Of a stretch of DNA of 64,000 nucleotides, positions 1,430-7,745 are shown one piece after another (within the stretch, counting starts at the first letter, position 1; each line of letters opens with the position of its first letter). A model generated the notes under the pieces. The model worked only from the letters and a program-made list of their open reading frames with translations, ran no database searches and was not told where the DNA came from. This DNA is from Planctomycetota bacterium (GTDB taxonomy: Bacteria; Planctomycetota; PLA2; JAEUHO01): NCBI GenBank assembly GCA_965223505.1, contig CBDCWP010000031.1:90400-154399 (forward strand), in the 5' to 3' direction. The position numbers were made by a program, and so were the translations under genes.

Positions 1430-2524
1430 CTACACGGTCGCTCGCGGCCGCGACGGACGACCGGACACCGGACTGTTCGAAAGCGCGGCCCGCTCGAGCT
1501 CGAGCAGCCGCTGCTTGCGCCAGACGCCGCCGCCGTATCCGGACAGCGAACCGTCCGATCGAACGACGCGGTGGCACGGAATCACGATCGCGATGCGGTT
1601 CTGACCGTTCGCCGAGCCCACGGCGCGACTCGCGCCCGGACGACCGACGTGCTCCGCCACCTCTCCGTAGCTCTGGGTCGCGCCGTACGGAATCGTTCGA
1701 AGGTGCGTCCACACGGCTTGCTGAAACGGCGTCGGCCGCGTGTCGAGCGCAACGTCGAAGGCGGTGAGTCGGCCCGCGAAATACGCCGCCAGCTCCCGCT
1801 CGACCTGTGCGAGGTGTTCGTTGCTGCCGGGCACGACCGATCGGCGGAACCGAGTGCGCACCTGCTGCAGCTCCCGCTCCAACGCGCGCCGGTCGACGAA
1901 CTCGAGCAGCACGAGACCGTGCTCGGAGGCGATGGCGATCATCGGTCCGAGCGGGCTCGAGATCCACGCTGCCGTCAGCGCCTCCTTCGAGCGCGACGCA
2001 CCGGGCGGCATGCCGAACACCTTCGCGAACGCGTCCCGGAAGCCGCTTTCGGACTCGTAGCCCGCGTCGACGCCGGCTGCCGAGATCCCTGCGCCTCGCG
2101 AGAGCGCACGCATCGCGATACCCAGCCGCCAGGCGCGCTGAAATGCCTGAAAGGTCACCCCGAAGTGCCGCACAAAGTAGCGCCGCACCGTCGCCGGGTT
2201 CAGGCCCTCTTCGATGAGCTCGCGATCGCGGATGCGGCGGTTCGGCGCACTGCCGACGCTGCGGATGAGACGAGCCGCCCACGACGGGCGGTCCGGATCC
2301 CGGTCGAGCGGACGGCACACTTTGCACGGCCGATAGCCGGCATGGAGGGCGGCCGCCGCGGTCGAAACGAACTCGACGTTCTGCGGCTTCGGCTTTCGGG
2401 CACGGCAGACAGGACGACAGAAGATGCCGGTGGTCCGAACACACGCGAAGAACAGCCCGTCGTACGACGCGTCGCGCCGCACCAGCGCGTCGAACATCTC
2501 AGGGTCGGGCGGAAGCGTCTGCAC
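1430..2524 (-). CDS. ada: Bifunctional Ada transcriptional activator / O6-methylguanine-DNA methyltransferase
   Basis: N-terminal Zn site TTGIFCRPVC...RPCKVC, AraC HTH (GYESESGFRDAF), C-terminal IPCHRVV active site. Confidence 0.95.
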   Translation of the reverse strand: MQTLPPDPEMFDALVRRDASYDGLFFACVRTTGIFCRPVCRARKPKPQNVEFVSTAAAALHAGYRPCKVCRPLDRDPDRPSWAARLIRSVGSAPNRRIRDRELIEEGLNPATVRRYFVRHFGVTFQAFQRAWRLGIAMRALSRGAGISAAGVDAGYESESGFRDAFAKVFGMPPGASRSKEALTAAWISSPLGPMIAIASEHGLVLLEFVDRRALERELQQVRTRFRRSVVPGSNEHLAQVERELAAYFAGRLTAFDVALDTRPTPFQQAVWTHLRTIPYGATQSYGEVAEHVGRPGASRAVGSANGQNRIAIVIPCHRVVRSDGSLSGYGGGVWRKQRLLELERAALSNSPVSGRPSRPRATV

Positions 2525-2595
2525 GGCCGGAGTCTAGCGACCGGTCGAACGGCCTCCACCGCGCATCGGACGACCAATTCGGATTCCCACCGGTG

Positions 2596-4041
2596 TCATG
2601 CGCTGGAATGCTCCTCGACCCGCCGCGCCGCGGCGTTCGCCACGAGAAGTTGCCAGCGCGCGTCGTGTCGAAACAGCTTGTGTCGAATCGGCTCGCGGAA
2701 GAGCGGCAGCCACGCCCACATGAGCCGGACGAGCGAATACCCCACGCTCATTCCGAAGATGCCGAAGAGCACCGGAAATGCACTCATCCACTCGGGAAGG
2801 GGCCGGCCGATGTACCTCGTGGCCCCGACCGTCAAGCCGCCCACGAGCAGACACCCGACCAGCGCCATCAACGCGAGGTTGAGGGCGCGTACCGTGCGTT
2901 CGACCCTGGGACCGTCGATCACGGAGGCACGCACCTCGCCCTTCGGGAAGATGCGCGAGAGGATCCACGCGAAGGCGCCCAGCAGGATGTAGCTGTCAAT
3001 CGCGAGCTCGGATCCCATCGCGTGCGCCATTACGACGTGCGTGCCGTGAATGAGCGCGTTGAACGGCGGGACCGAGATCAAGAGCGCCACGGGCAAGAGG
3101 AAGACGTTCCAGTGCTTGGACAGCGACAGGAAGCGCTTCGCGGCCCCGAAGGACGCGCCGAGGACCTTCGGCCGCCCGAGCTTGCCCACGATGTCTCGCA
3201 AGAGGCTCCAGAGGATGATGATCTCGAGCATGCTCACGACGAACGCGACCCACTTGACGAGATGCGACTGCGGTAGGTGGTAGGTGTGGTGCGTGTAGTT
3301 CGTGAACGAGTTCAGCAATCCCAGTCCGAACAGGGCGAATGCCGAACGTGACTGCGCCACGGAGCGGTCGCGTGAGAGGCGTTCGCCCACGTACAGCAGC
3401 GAGCCGTACACCATCTGGTTGAACGACGCGACCAGTGTCCCGCACGACTTCCACTGGATCTGGAGGTCGGCAACGGGCTGCGAGCTCACGAACGGCAGAA
3501 GGTGCGCATGGCCTTCCGCGAAGGTGTACACGAACAAGCAGGCGCCGGCGGTCCACATGTACACGTAGACGGGCCTGGACCAGAAGCCGCGCCGGACACG
3601 GCGCAGAAACGTCCAGAGGAACAAGACCCAACCGACCAAGATCGATACGGATATCAGCGGATGGAATCCGAGGTACTCCCGGCCCGAGGTGATTCCGAGC
3701 GGCAGCGTGACGATCGTCGCGATGCCTGCCAGACCCCAGCAGACCATGTGCGCCCGATACCGGCGCCGTTCGCCGCGATTCGGTTCGCCGAAGGTCTCGA
3801 AGAGGAACCAGTACATGCAAGCGACGCAGCCCAGGTAGATCCAGGCCGAGGCGAAGGTCGTGTGCAACGGTCGGATCTGGACGAGGCTGATGCCCGCGTT
3901 CGCCATCGGCCGTGAGAACGCGGGAACGTAGTACAGCGCACCGAGCGCGCCCATCAGGACGGACAGGAGCATGCAGGCGAACGCACAGGCCATCGCCACC
4001 AGCACCATGCGCTCGCCGGACTTGAAGACGGGGTCGTTCAC
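2596..4041 (-). CDS. Heme-copper oxidase superfamily subunit I, NorB (cNOR)-like but with non-canonical active site
   Basis: Multi-TM protein. RPLHT matches NorB R57/H60; GREY, THHTY, SMLE and HGTHVVMAHAM align to NorB landmarks. Start set at GTG 4041, which overlaps the upstream stop (GTGA). Confidence 0.85.
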   Translation of the reverse strand: MNDPVFKSGERMVLVAMACAFACMLLSVLMGALGALYYVPAFSRPMANAGISLVQIRPLHTTFASAWIYLGCVACMYWFLFETFGEPNRGERRRYRAHMVCWGLAGIATIVTLPLGITSGREYLGFHPLISVSILVGWVLFLWTFLRRVRRGFWSRPVYVYMWTAGACLFVYTFAEGHAHLLPFVSSQPVADLQIQWKSCGTLVASFNQMVYGSLLYVGERLSRDRSVAQSRSAFALFGLGLLNSFTNYTHHTYHLPQSHLVKWVAFVVSMLEIIILWSLLRDIVGKLGRPKVLGASFGAAKRFLSLSKHWNVFLLPVALLISVPPFNALIHGTHVVMAHAMGSELAIDSYILLGAFAWILSRIFPKGEVRASVIDGPRVERTVRALNLALMALVGCLLVGGLTVGATRYIGRPLPEWMSAFPVLFGIFGMSVGYSLVRLMWAWLPLFREPIRHKLFRHDARWQLLVANAAARRVEEHSSA

Positions 4042-4805
4042 TTGTACTCGAACCACGGAAGGCCGTCCGTGGTCTCCTGCGCCTTGGGGGCGGCATCGCG
4101 AAACGACGCATGAATGGACTCCGCGTTCGCGCCCAACCAAGTCAAGAAGTCCAGGAGGTCGTCACGCTCCTGCGGAGCGAGGGCGAACCGCGGCATGCCC
4201 TTCGACGGGATCCCGTTGGCCAGCATGGCGGCGACGCCTTCGCGTCCGAGCTTCGTGATCAGGTGCGTGAGATCGGTTCCCTTGTGCTCGGCCATGGGGT
4301 TGGGGAGATGGCAGCCGATGCACTTCTGCGCGAAGAGCACGTCGCGGCCGTGCGCCTGCGCCGGGGTCATGAACACGCCGTCTTCGACCGCTCGCGACAC
4401 CGCCTCTGCCAGTACCTCCGCGCCGTCGAAACCGCGATACGGCGGCAGCTGGCCGCGGCCGGTCTCGTGGACCTCGGCCAGAAACGCCTCAATTGCCCGG
4501 CGGTCTGCGTCACTCAGGTCGAACGCCGGCATCTGGCCGGCGCCGATGGTGAGGACGGTGTCGACCCGTGCGCGGGTCAGGCGTTCCGTCGCGTTGGTGA
4601 GGTCGGGCCCGAGGAACCCGCCGAATCCGTAGATCTGATGGCAGCTCTGACAGTTGTGGCGGTGCCAGACATCGCGGCCCGCGGACGCCTGACCCGACAA
4701 CGCCGCCGTCGCCCGGCCCGCGGGATCCGTGTACACCAGCCAACCTTGCAGAAAGAACACGGCCACCAGACTGACGAGGAGAACCTGGCGGGCGCGCGTG
4801 CTCAT
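4038..4805 (-). CDS. NorC-like membrane-anchored diheme cytochrome c
   Basis: N-terminal TM; GRDVWHRHNCQSCHQIYGFGGFLGPDLT...MPAF resembles NorC; second CxxCH (CIGCH) followed by GMPRF. Confidence 0.85.
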   Translation of the reverse strand: MSTRARQVLLVSLVAVFFLQGWLVYTDPAGRATAALSGQASAGRDVWHRHNCQSCHQIYGFGGFLGPDLTNATERLTRARVDTVLTIGAGQMPAFDLSDADRRAIEAFLAEVHETGRGQLPPYRGFDGAEVLAEAVSRAVEDGVFMTPAQAHGRDVLFAQKCIGCHLPNPMAEHKGTDLTHLITKLGREGVAAMLANGIPSKGMPRFALAPQERDDLLDFLTWLGANAESIHASFRDAAPKAQETTDGLPWFEYK

Positions 4806-5536
4806 CTACGTTCGGTGAGCTCCGAGTTCGTGGCGACGTAGATCGTATCCGTTTGGTCGTCGTCGATCATCGGGTTGAACACGACGATCTCGTGCGTCGC
4901 GACGTCGGCGAACGCGGTCGAGAGCAGCCGGGTGAAGGCGTCGTTCGTCGCACCCGCCGACCACAGCGCGAACACGCCGCCCGGCGACAGCAACGCCGCC
5001 GCCGATGCCATCGCGCCGCGCTCGTAGAAGCGACCGTGCGCCGGACCCAGCCAGGCGTCGGGCGCATGGTCGATGTCCACGAGGATCGCGCCGTACCCGC
5101 CGGCGACCGCGATCTCGCTCTCCGCACCCCGGCCGACGAGCGCGAAAAAGTCGCCTTGACGCAGCGTGCAGCGTTCGTGCCCGCACAAGGACGCCCCGAG
5201 CGGAACGAGACCCGTTTGGTGCCACTCGATGACCTCCGGCAACAGATCGACGACCGTGACGCTGCGCGCGCGCTCGTCGCCGAGCGCGGCCCATGCCGTG
5301 TACCCGAGGCCGAGCCCGCCGACCAGCACGTCGAACGGTTCATCCGGCGCGTCAGCGAGCGCAAGCAGAGAGAGCTGCTGCTCCGACTCGTTGAGCCAGC
5401 TCGACATCAACAGGTCGTCATTGAGCTTGATCTCGTAGATGGGCTCGGGGCCGAGCCCCGGCACCGTCCTGCGACGCAGCACGAGCTCGCCCAACGCGCA
5501 CTGACGGACGTCGAGCTCTTCGTAGGTGGTGCTCAT
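4802..5536 (-). CDS. Spermidine synthase-like SAM-binding methyltransferase
   Basis: LLMSS...SE, VLVGGLGLGYT, AILVDIDHAP, LSPGGVFALWS; start at MSTTYEELD. Confidence 0.8.
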   Translation of the reverse strand: MSTTYEELDVRQCALGELVLRRRTVPGLGPEPIYEIKLNDDLLMSSWLNESEQQLSLLALADAPDEPFDVLVGGLGLGYTAWAALGDERARSVTVVDLLPEVIEWHQTGLVPLGASLCGHERCTLRQGDFFALVGRGAESEIAVAGGYGAILVDIDHAPDAWLGPAHGRFYERGAMASAAALLSPGGVFALWSAGATNDAFTRLLSTAFADVATHEIVVFNPMIDDDQTDTIYVATNSELTERR

Positions 5537-5562
5537 GGAACGCGCATCGTCGATGCGTCGGG

Positions 5563-6744
5563 TCAATTCGAGCCAGGGAAATCGAAGCCGTCCGCGCGCT
5601 TGCCCGGCGACATCGGCTTTCCCACCGCCTCCGGCAACGTGTCATGGCGGACATAGCCGCCGGGCGCGCTTGCCGGCGTCGGCTGCCAGCGGCCGTCGAC
5701 GTCGTTGTTGAGACTCACGCCCGGCACGGTGCTCTGCCCGGCATACGAAACGCGGAACAGCTCCAACGCGCCGATGCGTAGGACGACGTGGTCGCCGCCG
5801 TTGTTCAGACCCAGTGTTCCGGTCGAAGCCGTCTGCGCATGTCCGGTCGCGTGGCGCGGCGCGAAGCCCGTCGGCGTTCCGGCGCCGAAGACGACGATCG
5901 AGCCACCGATGGGCAGCGTCGTCGGATTCGGAAACGCGTGTCGCAGGGTCGAGGCGTCGTGGACCGTGAGGCCGCTCAGGTCGAGGGGCCGCCGACTCAC
6001 GTTGACCAGCTCGACGAACTCGTCGGACGTGGCGCTCGCAACGCCGTCGTCGTTCGCATCGACGCCGCCGGGGTTCGCGAGCAACTCGTTGACGATCAGG
6101 TCCCCGGCATCGACGGCTTCGGAGTGGAAGAGCATCGCGGACGCAGACCGAGCGCCCTGTGAGAGCACGACGTGGACATCCTCATTCACGACGATGCCGG
6201 GGGGAACACGGGCGATGAGCGTCGTCTCGCCGACCACGTCGACGGACGATGCCTCCACGCCGCCGAACGCGACCACGGGACTCTCGAGCGAACCGAATCC
6301 GCTTGCCTCGATCGTGATGCGAGTCCCACCCGAGGTTGCGTGATGACTTCCGATCCCGGGTCGAATCGAGATCCGCGGTGGGGGCGGGTCGTACGCGAAG
6401 AGGTCCGGCGCGTGTGCGGCGCGTTGATCGAGGATCACGCTCACGTTCGCAGCGCCCTCGCTGCCGGCCGGAAGCACCACCTCGATCGCTTCGTCCGACA
6501 CCACGCGGGCGGACACCCGGCGAACGCCGATGACCGCGAATGCCGTCGCCGGCGACCCGGCCGCAAGGAAGCCCTCGCCGCGAAGGACGAGCGGCGTGCC
6601 GCCGTGGACGGGGCCGGTCGAAGGTTCCACAGCGGCGAGCACCAACGGTGCGGACCCGATCGGAGGCGGTGTCGATCCACCGCACCCGGCCAGCCAGGGG
6701 ATCACAAGCAGGAGACAGGCGTAGGAGCGCAGCGAGGCGTGCAT
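5563..6744 (-). CDS. Lipoprotein with two IPT/TIG domains and a lamin-tail domain
   Basis: Lipobox LAGC; VEPSTGPVHGGTPLVLRGEGF and GGTRITIEASGF (IPT/TIG); LIVNELLANP...DEFVELVN...LDLSG...LNNGGD (LTD). Confidence 0.8.
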   Translation of the reverse strand: MHASLRSYACLLLVIPWLAGCGGSTPPPIGSAPLVLAAVEPSTGPVHGGTPLVLRGEGFLAAGSPATAFAVIGVRRVSARVVSDEAIEVVLPAGSEGAANVSVILDQRAAHAPDLFAYDPPPPRISIRPGIGSHHATSGGTRITIEASGFGSLESPVVAFGGVEASSVDVVGETTLIARVPPGIVVNEDVHVVLSQGARSASAMLFHSEAVDAGDLIVNELLANPGGVDANDDGVASATSDEFVELVNVSRRPLDLSGLTVHDASTLRHAFPNPTTLPIGGSIVVFGAGTPTGFAPRHATGHAQTASTGTLGLNNGGDHVVLRIGALELFRVSYAGQSTVPGVSLNNDVDGRWQPTPASAPGGYVRHDTLPEAVGKPMSPGKRADGFDFPGSN

Positions 6745-6911
6745 GCCGTGACATCGCGCGGGTCGACGCGGGGGATACGCGTGCCGCGCGACCGGTGCGG
6801 CCGCGTCGAGAGGCCGATCTCCTCGGGCCTCGCGGATTTCCGCTGAAAACCTGCGGACCGCGTCCGCTGACCGCGCATTCCCCCGCAGACCTCGCCACCA
6901 AGGAGAATGAC

Positions 6912-7745
6912 ATGGGTACATCGATTCGACGCAAGAGCCGCGGCTTCCGGCTGGGTGCGCGCCTCCTGCAGAGCGCGCTCGTATGTGCCGCCCTACTCGT
7001 CGCCGGCTGCGGCGGCGGGGGCGGATCGTCCGGCGTCGGCGGCGCCACCGGCATCGGCTTCCTCCCGACCAGCCTCAACCAGGCGGCCTATCGCGGCGGG
7101 AACGTCTACGAGTACGGATACCGTTCCTTCGCGAACATCGACTTCACGGGCGCACCCGCGGACACCGACTACTCGCGCTGGGCAATGCTGCACGACGGAT
7201 CCACGTACCGCCTGTTCTTCGGCCGCCTCAACCGCTCGTCGATCTACCAGTTCGGTTACAACCCCGCTTCGGGGGACTACGAGTACGGCTTCAACTCGAT
7301 CGACGAGATCGCGGTCACCGGCTTCCCGGCCGACGCCGACCGTTCGTCCTTCAAGATGCTCCACGACGGGGCGCGCTACCGGATCTTCATGCGCAGCCTC
7401 TCGGACCCGCGAAACCTCTATCAAGGCGCCTTCAACTCGTCCACCGGATCGTACGTGTACGGCTTCGCTTCCATCGACCGGATCAGCACGACCGGACTGC
7501 CGGCCGACGCCGACCTCTCGCGCTGGGCGATGCTGTACGACGGGAGCGTGTACCGACAGTACGTGGGAAGGGTGGGCCGGCCGGATGCGATGTATCAGTG
7601 CGGGTTCGACGGCCGCACCTACGACTTCGGCCATCGCTCGATCTCGTCGTTGTCGATCTCCGGCATGCCGGCCAGCAGTGACACGCGCAGCGTCTCGATG
7701 CTCCACGACGGAACCGACTACCGCCTCTTCCACCTGTCCGACTAG
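6912..7745 (+). CDS. Lipoprotein with four ~57-aa tandem repeats, function unknown
   Basis: AGGAGA RBS at 6901; lipobox VAGC; four repeats of YQ..(Y/F)...Y.(Y/F)G..S...I...G.PA..D......ML(H/Y)DG..YR. Confidence 0.75.
   Translation: MGTSIRRKSRGFRLGARLLQSALVCAALLVAGCGGGGGSSGVGGATGIGFLPTSLNQAAYRGGNVYEYGYRSFANIDFTGAPADTDYSRWAMLHDGSTYRLFFGRLNRSSIYQFGYNPASGDYEYGFNSIDEIAVTGFPADADRSSFKMLHDGARYRIFMRSLSDPRNLYQGAFNSSTGSYVYGFASIDRISTTGLPADADLSRWAMLYDGSVYRQYVGRVGRPDAMYQCGFDGRTYDFGHRSISSLSISGMPASSDTRSVSMLHDGTDYRLFHLSD

What the first reader, a model, noticed from the sequence alone, without database searches (positions are those of the whole stretch)
2596..4805. cNOR-derived heme-copper enzyme with a rebuilt active site (possible new nitrogen-oxide chemistry)
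Seen: translationally coupled NorC-like and NorB-like genes. Compared with P. aeruginosa NorB landmarks (recalled), R57/H60 (RPLH), GRE, the helix VII HH, the helix VIII Glu (SMLE) and the high-spin heme His are kept. Helix VI aligns without gaps as DLQIQWKSCGTLVASFNQMVYG versus [22 protein letters not shown], so the FeB ligand His207 becomes Gly, Glu211 becomes Ala and Glu215 becomes Gln. Helix X HxH becomes HAM, implying His/Met ligation of the low-spin heme. New potential ligands appear: EGHAH, a third His in HHTYH, and Glu in MGSE. No norQ/norD is in the window. Established: canonical HCO/NOR enzymes need six His ligands. Inference: this is neither a normal NO reductase nor an O2 reductase. 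It may belong to one of the little-characterised cNOR-derived clades (an N2O-reducing role has been speculated for such proteins) or to a new one.
Basis: partly seen in the sequence, partly recalled or inferred. Interest (0 to 1): 0.85.

Follow-up and report, generated by a model that had tools for sequence, protein, structure and literature searches.

The report
Divergent NorCB-like haem enzyme pair
Two overlapping genes encode a membrane haem enzyme related to bacterial nitric oxide reductase whose catalytic pocket has been rebuilt; it belongs to a widespread family that is already named in the literature but has never been tested, so its substrate is still unknown.

Summary
Window 4805..4038 (-) encodes a membrane-anchored dihaem cytochrome c. 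Its first domain is NorC-like and its second is CcoP-like. It overlaps by GTGA a 481-aa heme-copper-oxidoreductase subunit I (4041..2596, -). Profile alignment to solved NorB shows His207->Gly201, Glu211 deleted, Glu215->Asn208 and His349->Met342. Four of the six canonical His remain. These changes are not decay: they hold in 373-389 of 389 distinct relatives. Lys198/Gly201/Glu273 (368 of 389) swaps as a block with His198/Asp201/Ala273 (13 of 389) in a sister clade.

The family is not new. It includes the only odd oxidase of Cloacibacterium normanense, a species that Murali et al. 2024 list under 'N2Ored', an untested cNOR-sister family.

In Bacteroidota the pair sits behind nosDFY and an iron-centre repair gene, and 43 of 50 carriers have NosZ. 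In the window's clade only 8 of 50 do. The window's genome has a qNOR but no Nir or NosZ was found.

Best reading: a periplasm-facing nitrogen-oxide reductase with a rebuilt metal site, NO most likely (about 0.45), N2O about 0.2.

The parts
4038..4805 (-). Subunit II: membrane-anchored dihaem cytochrome c (255 aa). It has an N-terminal TM helix, a NorC-like haem c domain and a second CcoP/c6-like haem c domain.
   Evidence: ORF. Pfam Cytochrome_CBB3 with 2 stretches. Profile A3 vs PDB: NorC 3o0r_C 1.5e-12 and 4xyd_B 2.6e-11 for residues 17-111; CcoP 8smr_G and 3mk7_C for about 136-225. A homologue lies directly upstream on the same strand in 76 of 80 loci.
4638..4652 (-). Haem c site 1, CQSCH (C52, C55, H56). 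The likely sixth ligand is M92 (4530-4532).
   Evidence: C52, C55, H56 and M92 are invariant in 24 of 24 sequences of A3.
4308..4322 (-). Haem c site 2, CIGCH (C162, C165, H166). The likely sixth ligand is M204 (4194-4196).
   Evidence: These residues are invariant in A3.
4038..4041 (-). GTGA overlap: GTG start of subunit I and TGA stop of the cytochrome gene (translational coupling).
2596..4041 (-). Subunit I: 12-helix heme-copper-oxidoreductase fold, 481 aa, a member of the cNOR-sister ('N2Ored') family, K198/G201/E273 type.
   Evidence: Pfam COX1 58 bits. Family profile vs PDB: NorB 4xyd_A 3.5e-31, 3o0r_B 3.6e-24, cbb3 1e-22. AF2 pLDDT 94.9, pTM 0.93. Foldseek TM 0.78-0.84 to NorB and 0.79-0.81 to CcoN.
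3862..3873 (-). R57-P-L-H60: first axial ligand of the low-spin haem b (helix II).
   Evidence: Aligned to NorB R57/H60. H60 in 387 of 389, the other 2 being gaps.
3508..3516 (-). E176-G-H178 at the periplasmic end of helix V. E176 is invariant in the family; H178 is conserved only at clade level.
   Evidence: E176 389 of 389, H178 258 of 389. Helix 158-176 in the model. Role unknown.
3418..3468 (-). Helix VI core, D192...Q196-W-K198-S-C-G201-T-L-V-A205-S-F-N208. D192 = NorB D198, K198 = NorB W204, G201 = NorB His207, the Glu211 position is deleted, and N208 = NorB Glu215.
   Evidence: HMMER alignments. K198 371, G201 373, N208 384, D192 357 of 389. K/G/E against H/D/A covariation.
3277..3291 (-). 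H251-H252-T-Y-H255 (helix VII). H251/H252 are the two retained non-haem metal ligands; H255 is conserved only at clade level.
   Evidence: Aligned to the NorB HH pair. H251 386, H252 386, H255 218 of 389.
3223..3225 (-). E273 (SMLE, helix VIII), equivalent to the NorB helix VIII Glu. It covaries with K198/G201.
   Evidence: E273 371 of 389, Ala in 14. Triad counts.
3016..3060 (-). N328...H332-G-T-H-V-V-M-A-H340-A-M342 (helix IX-X). H340 is the proximal ligand of the high-spin haem. M342 replaces the second His of the low-spin haem. N328/H332 are conserved as in NorB and CcoN.
   Evidence: Same 8-residue spacing as NorB THGTQLTAAHGH. H340 386, M342 385, H332 386, N328 385 of 389.

Best explanation
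The two overlapping genes encode a NorCB-type two-subunit haem reductase that faces the periplasm. It belongs to the cNOR-sister family that Murali et al. 2024 list as 'N2Ored'.

Shown. The subunits are a NorC-like cytochrome with an extra haem c domain and a 12-helix subunit I. Subunit I keeps the ligand of the high-spin haem (H340), one His of the low-spin haem (H60) and two of the three non-haem-metal His (H251/H252). It also keeps the residues that in cNOR hold the haem-bridging Ca2+ (E122) and start the periplasmic proton path (D192). These cNOR roles are recalled from the literature.

Inferred electron path. Electrons run from a soluble donor to haem c (distal domain), then haem c (NorC-like domain), then a His60/Met342 haem b of raised potential, then haem b3.

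Inferred active site. Beside haem b3 the usual FeB cage (3 His + Glu) is not lost but rebuilt with the same donor set, three N and one carboxylate. In the window's type it is His251, His252, Lys198 (one turn up on helix VI, reaching into the space freed by Gly201) and Glu273. In the sister clade it is His251, His252, His198 and Asp201.

Inferred function. The site reduces a small nitrogen oxide with periplasmic protons and is therefore not electrogenic. The most likely reaction is 2 NO -> N2O, as a stand-alone NO-scavenging enzyme (about 0.45). N2O -> N2 is the main alternative.

About 0.9 of my confidence rests on family membership and the complex architecture. The 0.45 given below is for the whole statement, including NO as the substrate.
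For: Architecture: GTGA coupling. The cytochrome gene lies directly upstream in 76 of 80 loci and in 71 of 80 Bacteroidota loci. Natural fusions of subunit I with FixO-like and cytochrome c domains exist (P0146, P0164, P0177, P0187). NorC is the best PDB match of the cytochrome.

Fold and kinship: profile vs PDB gives NorB 3.5e-31 and 3.6e-24, cbb3 1e-22, qNOR 8e-21. The Cloacibacterium member alone hits NorB at 1.2e-15. The AF2 model has pLDDT 94.9 and TM 0.78-0.84 to NorB.

Selection on the altered site: K198 371, G201 373, N208 384, E273 371, M342 385 of 389. K/G/E occurs in 368 sequences and H/D/A in 13. On a tree the two types form sister clades (SH-aLRT 97 and 99), and the family as a whole has support 98 against qNOR and C-type outgroups.

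Nitrogen-oxide context in Bacteroidota: 26 of 80 loci have nosD/F/Y directly upstream on the same strand. 22 of 80 have an iron-sulfur repair di-iron protein next to the pair (TIGR03652, 240 bits against a cut-off of 204.7). This mirrors the norA-norB arrangement known for qNOR, which I recall from the literature. 14 of 80 have a Crp/Fnr regulator. NosZ lies 4-6 kb away in G053, G083 and G148. NosZ is present in 43 of 50 carriers, against 60 of 142 non-carriers in an even sample of the same order (Fisher p 6e-8, not corrected for relatedness). Only 3 of those 50 carriers have a qNOR domain, so most lack another recognisable NOR.

Precedents (section read in PMC11214002): nNOR has a His/Met low-spin haem, some eNORs have His/Lys, and gNOR replaces a metal His by Asp yet is still read as a NOR.
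Against: No activity has been measured for any member. My literature searches found none.

In the window's own clade there is no link to nitrogen-oxide genes. The window's genome (92% complete) gave no NirS, NirK or NosZ and already has a qNOR. Of 50 carrier genomes of that clade, 8 have NosZ, 14 NirK, 3 NirS and 7 a qNOR domain, and 26 have none of the four. No neighbour other than the cytochrome is conserved there.

In Bacteroidota the partner is NosZ rather than a nitrite reductase (NirK in 7 of 50, NirS in 0 of 50 with a silent control). That fits an N2O role as well as an NO role.

I could not read the model's coordinates, so the K198/E273/H251/H252 geometry was not measured. The K/G/E against H/D/A covariation is a single split on the tree, that is, one event. 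Lys as a ligand of a non-haem metal is unusual. With only two canonical His the site may hold no metal at all, or it may hold Cu: a CcoI-like P-type ATPase follows the pair in 21 of 80 Bacteroidota loci. No cNOR sequence was in my tree, so the sister relation to cNOR rests on HMMER scores and on the paper's text.
Confidence: 0.45

Rival explanations
1. It is a membrane-bound, copper-cluster-independent nitrous oxide reductase (N2O -> N2), as Murali et al. 2024 speculate for this family. Their basis is the acetylene- and sulfide-insensitive, membrane-bound activity of Flexibacter canadensis.
For: The paper's own proposal (sections read). The family sits in or next to nos clusters in 26 of 80 Bacteroidota loci and co-occurs with NosZ in 43 of 50 carriers. 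Few carriers have a nitrite reductase that would make NO (7 of 50 and 15 of 50). A stand-alone N2O scavenger would need no Nir or Nor, which fits the window's clade. The window's genome has a qNOR (an N2O source) and no NosZ was found. A raised-potential His/Met haem b suits a very oxidising couple.
Against: Carriers in Bacteroidota nearly always already have NosZ, so the enzyme would be redundant there. The neighbour is an NO-damage repair protein, which is typical of NO regulons. No chemical precedent for N2O reduction at a haem/non-haem site is known to me. The Flexibacter link is phenotypic only, and I could not test whether that organism carries the gene. No assay exists.
Confidence: 0.2
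2. It reduces or senses something other than NO or N2O at a haem pocket that has lost the second metal. Candidates are O2 or H2O2 scavenging to protect oxygen-sensitive enzymes, nitrite or another oxyanion bound by the buried Lys, or a purely electron-sink or regulatory role.
For: Only two of three metal His and no canonical Glu ligand remain. An invariant buried Lys paired with a Glu could replace the metal's charge. 26 of 50 carriers of the window's clade show none of Nir, NosZ or qNOR, and the window's genome is that of an aerobe with two aa3 and two cbb3-like oxidases.
Against: There is no cross-link Tyr/His pair for O2 chemistry. In the alignment to cbb3 (9g6b_A), the Tyr that I take, by counting, to be the cross-link Tyr falls opposite F246 of the window's protein. 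The Bacteroidota context is specifically nos/RIC/Crp. The sister clade has a complete 3 His + Asp set, which argues that a metal site is the ancestral and selected state.
Confidence: 0.25
3. It is a decaying, mis-sequenced or mis-aligned ordinary cNOR.
For: None beyond the missing ligands in a single sequence.
Against: The reading frame is intact and translationally coupled. The same substitutions occur in 373-385 of 389 distinct relatives from several phyla. There is no His anywhere in residues 181-250. The model is of high confidence. phmmer against 1.84 billion representatives finds only 287 proteins at E<=0.001, which marks a discrete family apart from the bulk of cNOR and cbb3 sequences.
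Confidence: 0.02

Closest known systems
'N2Ored' family of Murali et al. 2024 (PNAS 121:e2316422121; PMC11214002), a putative, uncharacterised HCO family next to cNOR
   Same: The only atypical oxidase of Cloacibacterium normanense, a species listed under N2Ored in Dataset S4, has the same QWK..G, HH, SM.E and H.M motifs. It joins the window's protein in one clade (SH-aLRT 98). Flavobacterium members are also present.
   Different: The window's protein is only about 30% identical to the Bacteroidota members. It pairs with a dihaem rather than a monohaem cytochrome and has an extra His178/His255 pair. The listed accession WP_069799494.1 was not matched directly; I found WP_104794355.1 from another strain. 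The paper's alignment is an image and its SI appendix could not be read, so I cannot say which features the authors already described.
Cytochrome c-dependent NO reductase, cNOR (NorCB; P. aeruginosa 3O0R, Roseobacter denitrificans 4XYD)
   Same: Best sequence and fold match. A NorC-like partner encoded upstream. Kept: R57/H60, GRE, D192 (NorB D198), HH, the helix VIII Glu, N..H.GT and the proximal His.
   Different: His207->Gly, Glu211 deleted, Glu215->Asn, His349->Met, and NorC Tyr73->Phe64. No norQ/norD. A single-sequence search against PDB finds nothing.
cbb3-type (C-family) cytochrome c oxidase, CcoNOP
   Same: Almost as close as NorB by profile (1e-22) and fold (TM 0.79-0.81). The second haem c domain resembles CcoP. 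Some relatives are fused to a FixO-like domain, as in CcoNO fusions.
   Different: The CuB His of helix VI is Gly and there is no cross-link Tyr. It scores 18.8 bits on the ccoN model, whose cut-off is 583.
nNOR, eNOR and gNOR (B-family-derived NORs; Murali et al. 2024)
   Same: Precedents for the individual changes: a His/Met low-spin haem (nNOR), a His/Lys low-spin haem (some eNORs), and a metal His replaced by a carboxylate (gNOR), which resembles the H/D/A sister clade (section read).
   Different: Those families derive from B-type oxidases and have CuA-type subunits. This one lies on the C/NOR branch and has a cytochrome c subunit.
NO dismutase (NOD) candidates of Methylomirabilis
   Same: A NOR-branch enzyme whose altered active-site ligands led to a proposal of new N-oxide chemistry.
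   Different: NOD is a qNOR derivative with the fused N-terminal domain. Here the cytochrome is a separate gene, and the own-genome qNOR is a distinct, distant protein.

Membership tests
Heme-copper oxidoreductase superfamily, subunit I | Pfam COX1 above the gathering score and a 12-helix fold | tested here: met
   58 bits against a cut-off of 34.8. AF2 pLDDT 94.9. Foldseek TM 0.78-0.84 to NorB and CcoN.
Heme-copper oxidoreductase superfamily, subunit I | Six conserved His (2 for the low-spin haem, 1 for the high-spin haem, 3 for CuB/FeB) | tested here: not met
   Four of six: H60, H251, H252, H340. Helix VI His -> G201 and helix X second His -> M342.
cNOR (NorB) | FeB site of three His plus Glu211, with Glu215 and Glu280 nearby | tested here: not met
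   His207->Gly, Glu211 deleted, Glu215->Asn208. Only the Glu280 equivalent (E273) is kept.
cNOR (NorCB) | Membrane-anchored NorC cytochrome c subunit encoded next to NorB | tested here: met
   NorC is the best PDB hit, 1.5e-12. GTGA coupling. Conserved in 76 of 80 loci. It carries a second haem c domain that NorC lacks.
cNOR | NorQ/NorD metal-insertion genes (usual, but not universal: PMC12067857 abstract) | tested here: not met
   No conserved neighbour besides the cytochrome. CbbQ_C gave 0 hits in the window's genome, 92% complete.
cNOR | NO reductase activity | not testable with these tools
   Needs a biochemical assay.
C-family (cbb3) O2 reductase | CuB with three His and a His-Tyr cross-link; ccoN equivalog score | tested here: not met
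   TIGR00780 18.8 bits against a cut-off of 583. The CuB His of helix VI is Gly, so no His-Tyr cross-link can form. In the alignment the Tyr that I take, by counting, to be the cbb3 cross-link Tyr falls opposite F246.
'N2Ored' family (Murali et al. 2024) | Groups with the proteins of the listed organisms (Cloacibacterium normanense, Flavobacterium spp.) apart from C-family and qNOR/NOD | tested here: met
   C. normanense has three COX1 genes: a cbb3 CcoNO, a second C-type with all six His plus Tyr, and this family's member. The family has SH-aLRT 98 against 2 qNOR and 2 C-type outgroups. Caveats: no cNOR was in the tree, and the listed accession was not matched.
'N2Ored' family (Murali et al. 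2024) | Lacks the active-site Tyr; closest relative is cNOR | tested here: met
   NorB is the best PDB hit, and the Cloacibacterium member hits NorB at 1.2e-15 against cbb3 at 4e-5.
'N2Ored' family (Murali et al. 2024) | N2O reductase activity (only proposed) | not testable with these tools
   No assay is reported in the papers I searched.
qNOR / NOD | Fused N-terminal NorC-like domain (PF22085) on one polypeptide | tested here: not met
   No PF22085 on subunit I. The genome's true qNOR is elsewhere (L085).
nNOR | B-family descent with a CuA-type subunit II, plus a His/Met low-spin haem | tested here: not met
   His/Met is shared, but the kinship is with NorB and CcoN and the partner is a cytochrome c.

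The most novel reading that the evidence does not exclude
The Lys198/Gly201/Glu273 pocket beside haem b3 is a catalytic site of a kind not yet described in the heme-copper superfamily, and it carries out chemistry other than NO reduction. The boldest version is a NosZ-independent (no CuZ cluster), membrane-bound N2O reductase. If so, the many Planctomycetota, Gemmatimonadota and Bacteroidota that carry the pair, at least 539 species representatives, would be unrecognised N2O sinks. A variant of this reading is that the buried Lys binds the linear triatomic substrate directly or after modification.
Probability: 0.2. Interest if true: 0.9.

Novelty: new member of a known kind. Interest (0 to 1): 0.45.

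Why it matters
It is present in hundreds of species and is routinely annotated as 'nitric oxide reductase subunit B' or 'cbb3 oxidase subunit I'.

This window adds a clean, intact example from a non-denitrifier. The follow-up adds testable leads:
- a covarying Lys/Gly/Glu against His/Asp/Ala active-site switch;
- a tight link to nos clusters and an NO-damage repair gene in Bacteroidota;
- cultured carriers in which the question can be settled (Cloacibacterium normanense, Flavisolibacter ginsengisoli DSM 18119, Flavobacterium cheonhonense).

If the enzyme proves to be an ordinary NO scavenger, the value is better annotation. If it reduces N2O, it would be a second biological N2O sink.

Tried and rejected
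- A single-sequence phmmer of the window's protein against PDB gave nothing at E<=1. Only the family profile reached NorB. A member of the H/D/A clade (P0245) also gave no meaningful PDB hit.
- Direct matching of the accessions in Dataset S4 failed. The C. normanense protein I fetched is WP_104794355.1, not WP_069799494.1. Ten Planctomycetota representatives gave other accessions. Only 15 of 418 cluster members were listed.
- The paper's alignment (Dataset S2) is a picture and the SI appendix is too large to read. Dataset S8 has no N2Ored column. What those files say about the family's active site is unknown to me.
- I looked for a cNOR outgroup in five carrier genomes. The candidates of about 209 bits proved to be ba3-like B-family proteins, so the tree has no cNOR.
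- Sequencing runs: 4 holders from one study and no RNA holder listed.
- The sigma-70 promoter and terminator scan of 2300..7300 gave 0 and 0 sites.
- The upstream ORFs coupled to the pair in the window (methyltransferase-like; TIG/LTD) and the downstream Ada gene have no counterpart in 80 related loci. I rejected them as parts of the system.
- nos_propeller (PF18764) and, in the Bacteroidota set, Cytochrom_D1 gave nothing, but their controls were silent. I do not count these as evidence of absence.
- Complex prediction was not run. The pairing is already supported by synteny and fusions, and a pass would mostly reflect likeness to solved NorCB.
- Literature searches for a later characterisation found none: 'N2Ored'/heme-copper/nitrous oxide; Flexibacter canadensis; Palauibacter; 'putative N2O reductase'. 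The one extra hit (PMC9270275) concerns NosZ genes (passage read).


Full report
**What is there.** On the minus strand, a 255-aa ORF (4805..4038) and a 481-aa ORF (4041..2596) overlap by GTGA, so the second starts on the stop of the first.

The first protein has an N-terminal hydrophobic helix and two CxxCH motifs (C52-H56, C162-H166). Pfam reads two cytochrome c domains. A profile of 24 orthologues matches NorC best (3o0r_C 1.5e-12, 4xyd_B 2.6e-11) over residues 17-111. It matches CcoP over residues about 136-225. It is therefore a NorC-like subunit with an added haem c domain, not a plain NorC. The NorC residue aligned with F64 is Tyr73, which I recall as a Ca2+ ligand.

The second protein passes Pfam COX1 weakly (58 bits, cut-off 34.8). 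It fails the ccoN equivalog by far (18.8 against 583).

**Is the odd ligand set real?** A single-sequence search of PDB finds nothing. A profile of 66 relatives finds NorB first (4xyd_A 3.5e-31, 3o0r_B 3.6e-24), then cbb3 CcoN (1e-22) and qNOR (8e-21). The AlphaFold model built on that alignment is confident (pLDDT 94.9, pTM 0.93). It superposes on NorB and CcoN with TM 0.78-0.84.

In the HMMER alignment to P. aeruginosa NorB, R57/H60, the GRE motif, D192 (NorB D198), H251/H252, E273, N328/H332 and H340 are kept. His207 is Gly201 and His349 is Met342. A one-residue gap falls on Glu211, so that Glu215 meets Asn208. The Cloacibacterium member aligned alone to Roseobacter NorB gives the same register.

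Residues 181-250 hold no His, so no alignment restores a helix VI ligand.

**Conservation.** The word-index search returned 455 relatives among 8000 scored candidates. The exhaustive phmmer search of 1.84 billion cluster representatives returned only 287 at E<=0.001. This marks a discrete family rather than the fringe of cNOR or cbb3.

I pooled three sources:
- the window's protein;
- the family gene of 157 of 160 fetched loci (three partial ones, L029, L056 and L163, were dropped);
- 233 database proteins of 400-560 aa that match the profile.

After removing identical sequences, 389 rows remained, aligned to the profile. Counts are: H60 387 (2 gaps), E176 389, K198 371, G201 373, N208 384, H251 386, H252 386, E273 371, N328 385, H332 386, H340 386, M342 385.

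H178 and H255 go together, mostly in the clade with dihaem cytochromes.

**A switch in the active site.** Positions 198, 201 and 273 covary. They read K/G/E in 368 sequences and H/D/A in 13, with 8 sequences showing other combinations or gaps.

I built a quick IQ-TREE from 73 representatives (under 50% mutual identity, rows with more than 60 gaps left out) plus four outgroups. The outgroups were two qNOR domains and two C-type oxidases. The family has SH-aLRT 98. The H/D/A sequences form one clade (12 rows, 99), sister to the K/G/E clade (61 rows, 97). The window lies in a 28-row subclade (99) with Planctomycetota and Gemmatimonadota. The tree warns of long branches and uneven composition, it contains no cNOR, and the switch is a single event on it.

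My reading is inferred, not shown. H251+H252+H198+D201 is a full three-N, one-carboxylate set like FeB's 3 His + Glu. H251+H252+K198+E273 would be the same donor set rebuilt, with Gly201 making room for the Lys. I could not read the model's coordinates, so the geometry is untested.

**Which family?** Murali et al. [quoted passage not shown] They count it in 293 GTDB genomes. Dataset S4 lists members from Flavobacterium croceum, F. antarcticum, Cloacibacterium normanense and eight MAGs.

The best 80 are Planctomycetota, Gemmatimonadota, Acidobacteriota, Pseudomonadota and, at about 30% identity, Flavobacterium and Cloacibacterium.

C. normanense has three COX1 genes. One is a 760-aa CcoNO-type. 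The second is a C-type oxidase with all six His and the Tyr. The third is the family member (110 bits). That third gene is the only candidate for the paper's N2Ored entry. The exact accession was not matched, because it comes from a different strain.

I therefore file the window's gene as a member of that named but untested family, in a subclade that differs by its dihaem partner.

**The two genes are the whole module.** A cytochrome homologue lies directly upstream on the same strand in 76 of 80 loci. The other four are cut by contig ends. The same holds in 71 of 80 Bacteroidota loci, where it is a protein of about 125-155 aa, presumably monohaem. Four relatives carry FixO-like and cytochrome c domains fused to subunit I.

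In the window two further ORFs are chained upstream by 4-bp overlaps (ATGA at 4802-4805). Neither they nor the downstream Ada gene recur in any of 80 loci. All-against-all clustering finds nothing else widely shared. No NorQ-type gene is in the genome.

**Context.** The window's genome (92% complete, 44 contigs) has two aa3-type oxidases, two divergent cbb3-like oxidases and one qNOR (PF22085 + COX1). No NirS, NirK or NosZ was found.

NosZ was found in 8, NirK in 14, NirS in 3 and a qNOR domain in 7. 26 have none of the four. These are mostly MAGs, so absence is soft.

The Bacteroidota picture is different. 26 of 80 loci have nosD/nosF/nosY directly upstream on the same strand. 22 have an iron-sulfur repair di-iron protein (RIC/ScdA, above the curated cut-off) next to the pair. 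14 have a Crp/Fnr regulator with an unknown 415-aa protein. 21 have a CcoI-like P-type ATPase downstream. NosZ lies 4-6 kb away in three genomes.

Of 50 Bacteroidota carriers (L087-L136), 43 have NosZ, 3 a qNOR domain and 7 NirK. NirS was found in none, but its control was silent.

In an even sample of 151 genomes of the same order, 9 carry the family and 7 of those 9 have NosZ, against 60 of 142 non-carriers. The pooled comparison (43 of 50 against 60 of 142) gives Fisher p 6e-8. The in-sample comparison gives only p 0.08. Neither is corrected for relatedness, and the 80 loci are the nearest relatives of one query.

**Function.** The context ties the family to nitrogen-oxide metabolism but does not name the substrate.

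For NO:
- the RIC gene is a hallmark of NO regulons and mirrors the norA-norB arrangement (recalled);
- a Crp/Fnr regulator is present;
- most carriers lack any other recognisable NOR;
- descent is from NOR;
- other NOR families tolerate comparable ligand changes.

For N2O:
- the pair sits in nos clusters;
- it goes with NosZ rather than with nitrite reductases;
- it stands alone in non-denitrifiers.

Against N2O:
- it would be redundant with NosZ in 86% of Bacteroidota carriers;
- there is no chemical precedent.

A third possibility, a haem-only pocket acting on another oxidant, fits the loss of ligands and the aerobic, non-denitrifying hosts of the window's clade. I put NO reduction at about 0.45, N2O reduction at about 0.2, another substrate or role at about 0.25, and the remainder on none of these. 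Decay or artefact is excluded.

**Verdict.** This is a new member (dihaem-partner subclade) of a known, uncharacterised kind. The open question of what the family does is real and testable in cultured carriers.

Noticed in passing
window 4802-6921 (-): Two ORFs are chained to the cytochrome gene by 4-bp overlaps. One is a 254-aa protein with only a faint spermidine-synthase-like match (NF002956, E 0.0016). The other is a 452-aa protein with TIG and lamin-tail domains. Neither recurs beside the pair in 80 related loci.
   Followed up: partly
window 1430-2524 (-): A full-length Ada-type regulator/O6-methylguanine methyltransferase (Ada_Zn_binding, HTH_18, Methyltransf_1N, DNA_binding_1) lies directly downstream on the same strand. 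It is not conserved with the pair.
   Followed up: partly
own genome: L081, L082, L083, L084, L085: The genome carries six oxidase-family genes. Two are aa3-type. Two are cbb3-like but score far below the ccoN cut-off (200 and 243 bits against 583). One is a qNOR with a long N-terminal extension in its open frame (935 aa). The sixth is the finding. The two divergent cbb3-like genes were not examined further.
   Followed up: partly
L105-L134, L149, L152, L158 (Bacteroidota loci): The gene order nosD-nosF-nosY-(RIC/ScdA)-cytochrome c-oxidase-like gene-(CcoI-like P-type ATPase), all on one strand, recurs in Chitinophagaceae and Sphingobacteriales. The ATPase hints at copper delivery to NosZ or to the oxidase-like protein.
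   Followed up: partly
L129, L136, L138, L143, L145, L155, L156, L163, L165, L166 and others (positions about 1300-2640): A conserved protein of about 415 aa with no Pfam or NCBIfam match sits between a Crp/Fnr regulator and the cytochrome gene in 14 of 80 Bacteroidota loci.
   Followed up: partly
P0223, P0225, P0241, P0245, P0251, P0252, P0255, P0261, P0263, P0268 and relatives: A sister clade of the family has His198/Asp201/Ala273 in place of Lys/Gly/Glu, which gives a complete 3 His + Asp set. Its hosts and gene context were not examined.
   Followed up: no
P0146, P0164, P0177, P0187: Family members of about 790-825 aa have FixO-like and cytochrome c domains fused to the C-terminus of subunit I.
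   Followed up: partly
L168 (Cloacibacterium normanense): A second C-type oxidase with all six His and the active-site Tyr is followed by a 330-aa ORF. It scores higher on this family's profile (83.8 bits) than the qNOR domains (58.7 and 55.0 bits) or the Cloacibacterium cbb3 (54.1 bits).
   Followed up: partly
L183 (G043 contig C173), L185: In NirS-bearing Gemmatimonadota that also carry the family, a ba3-like B-family oxidase homologue lies about 11 kb from nirS. It may be one of the B-derived NOR families and hence the real NOR of those genomes.
   Followed up: partly
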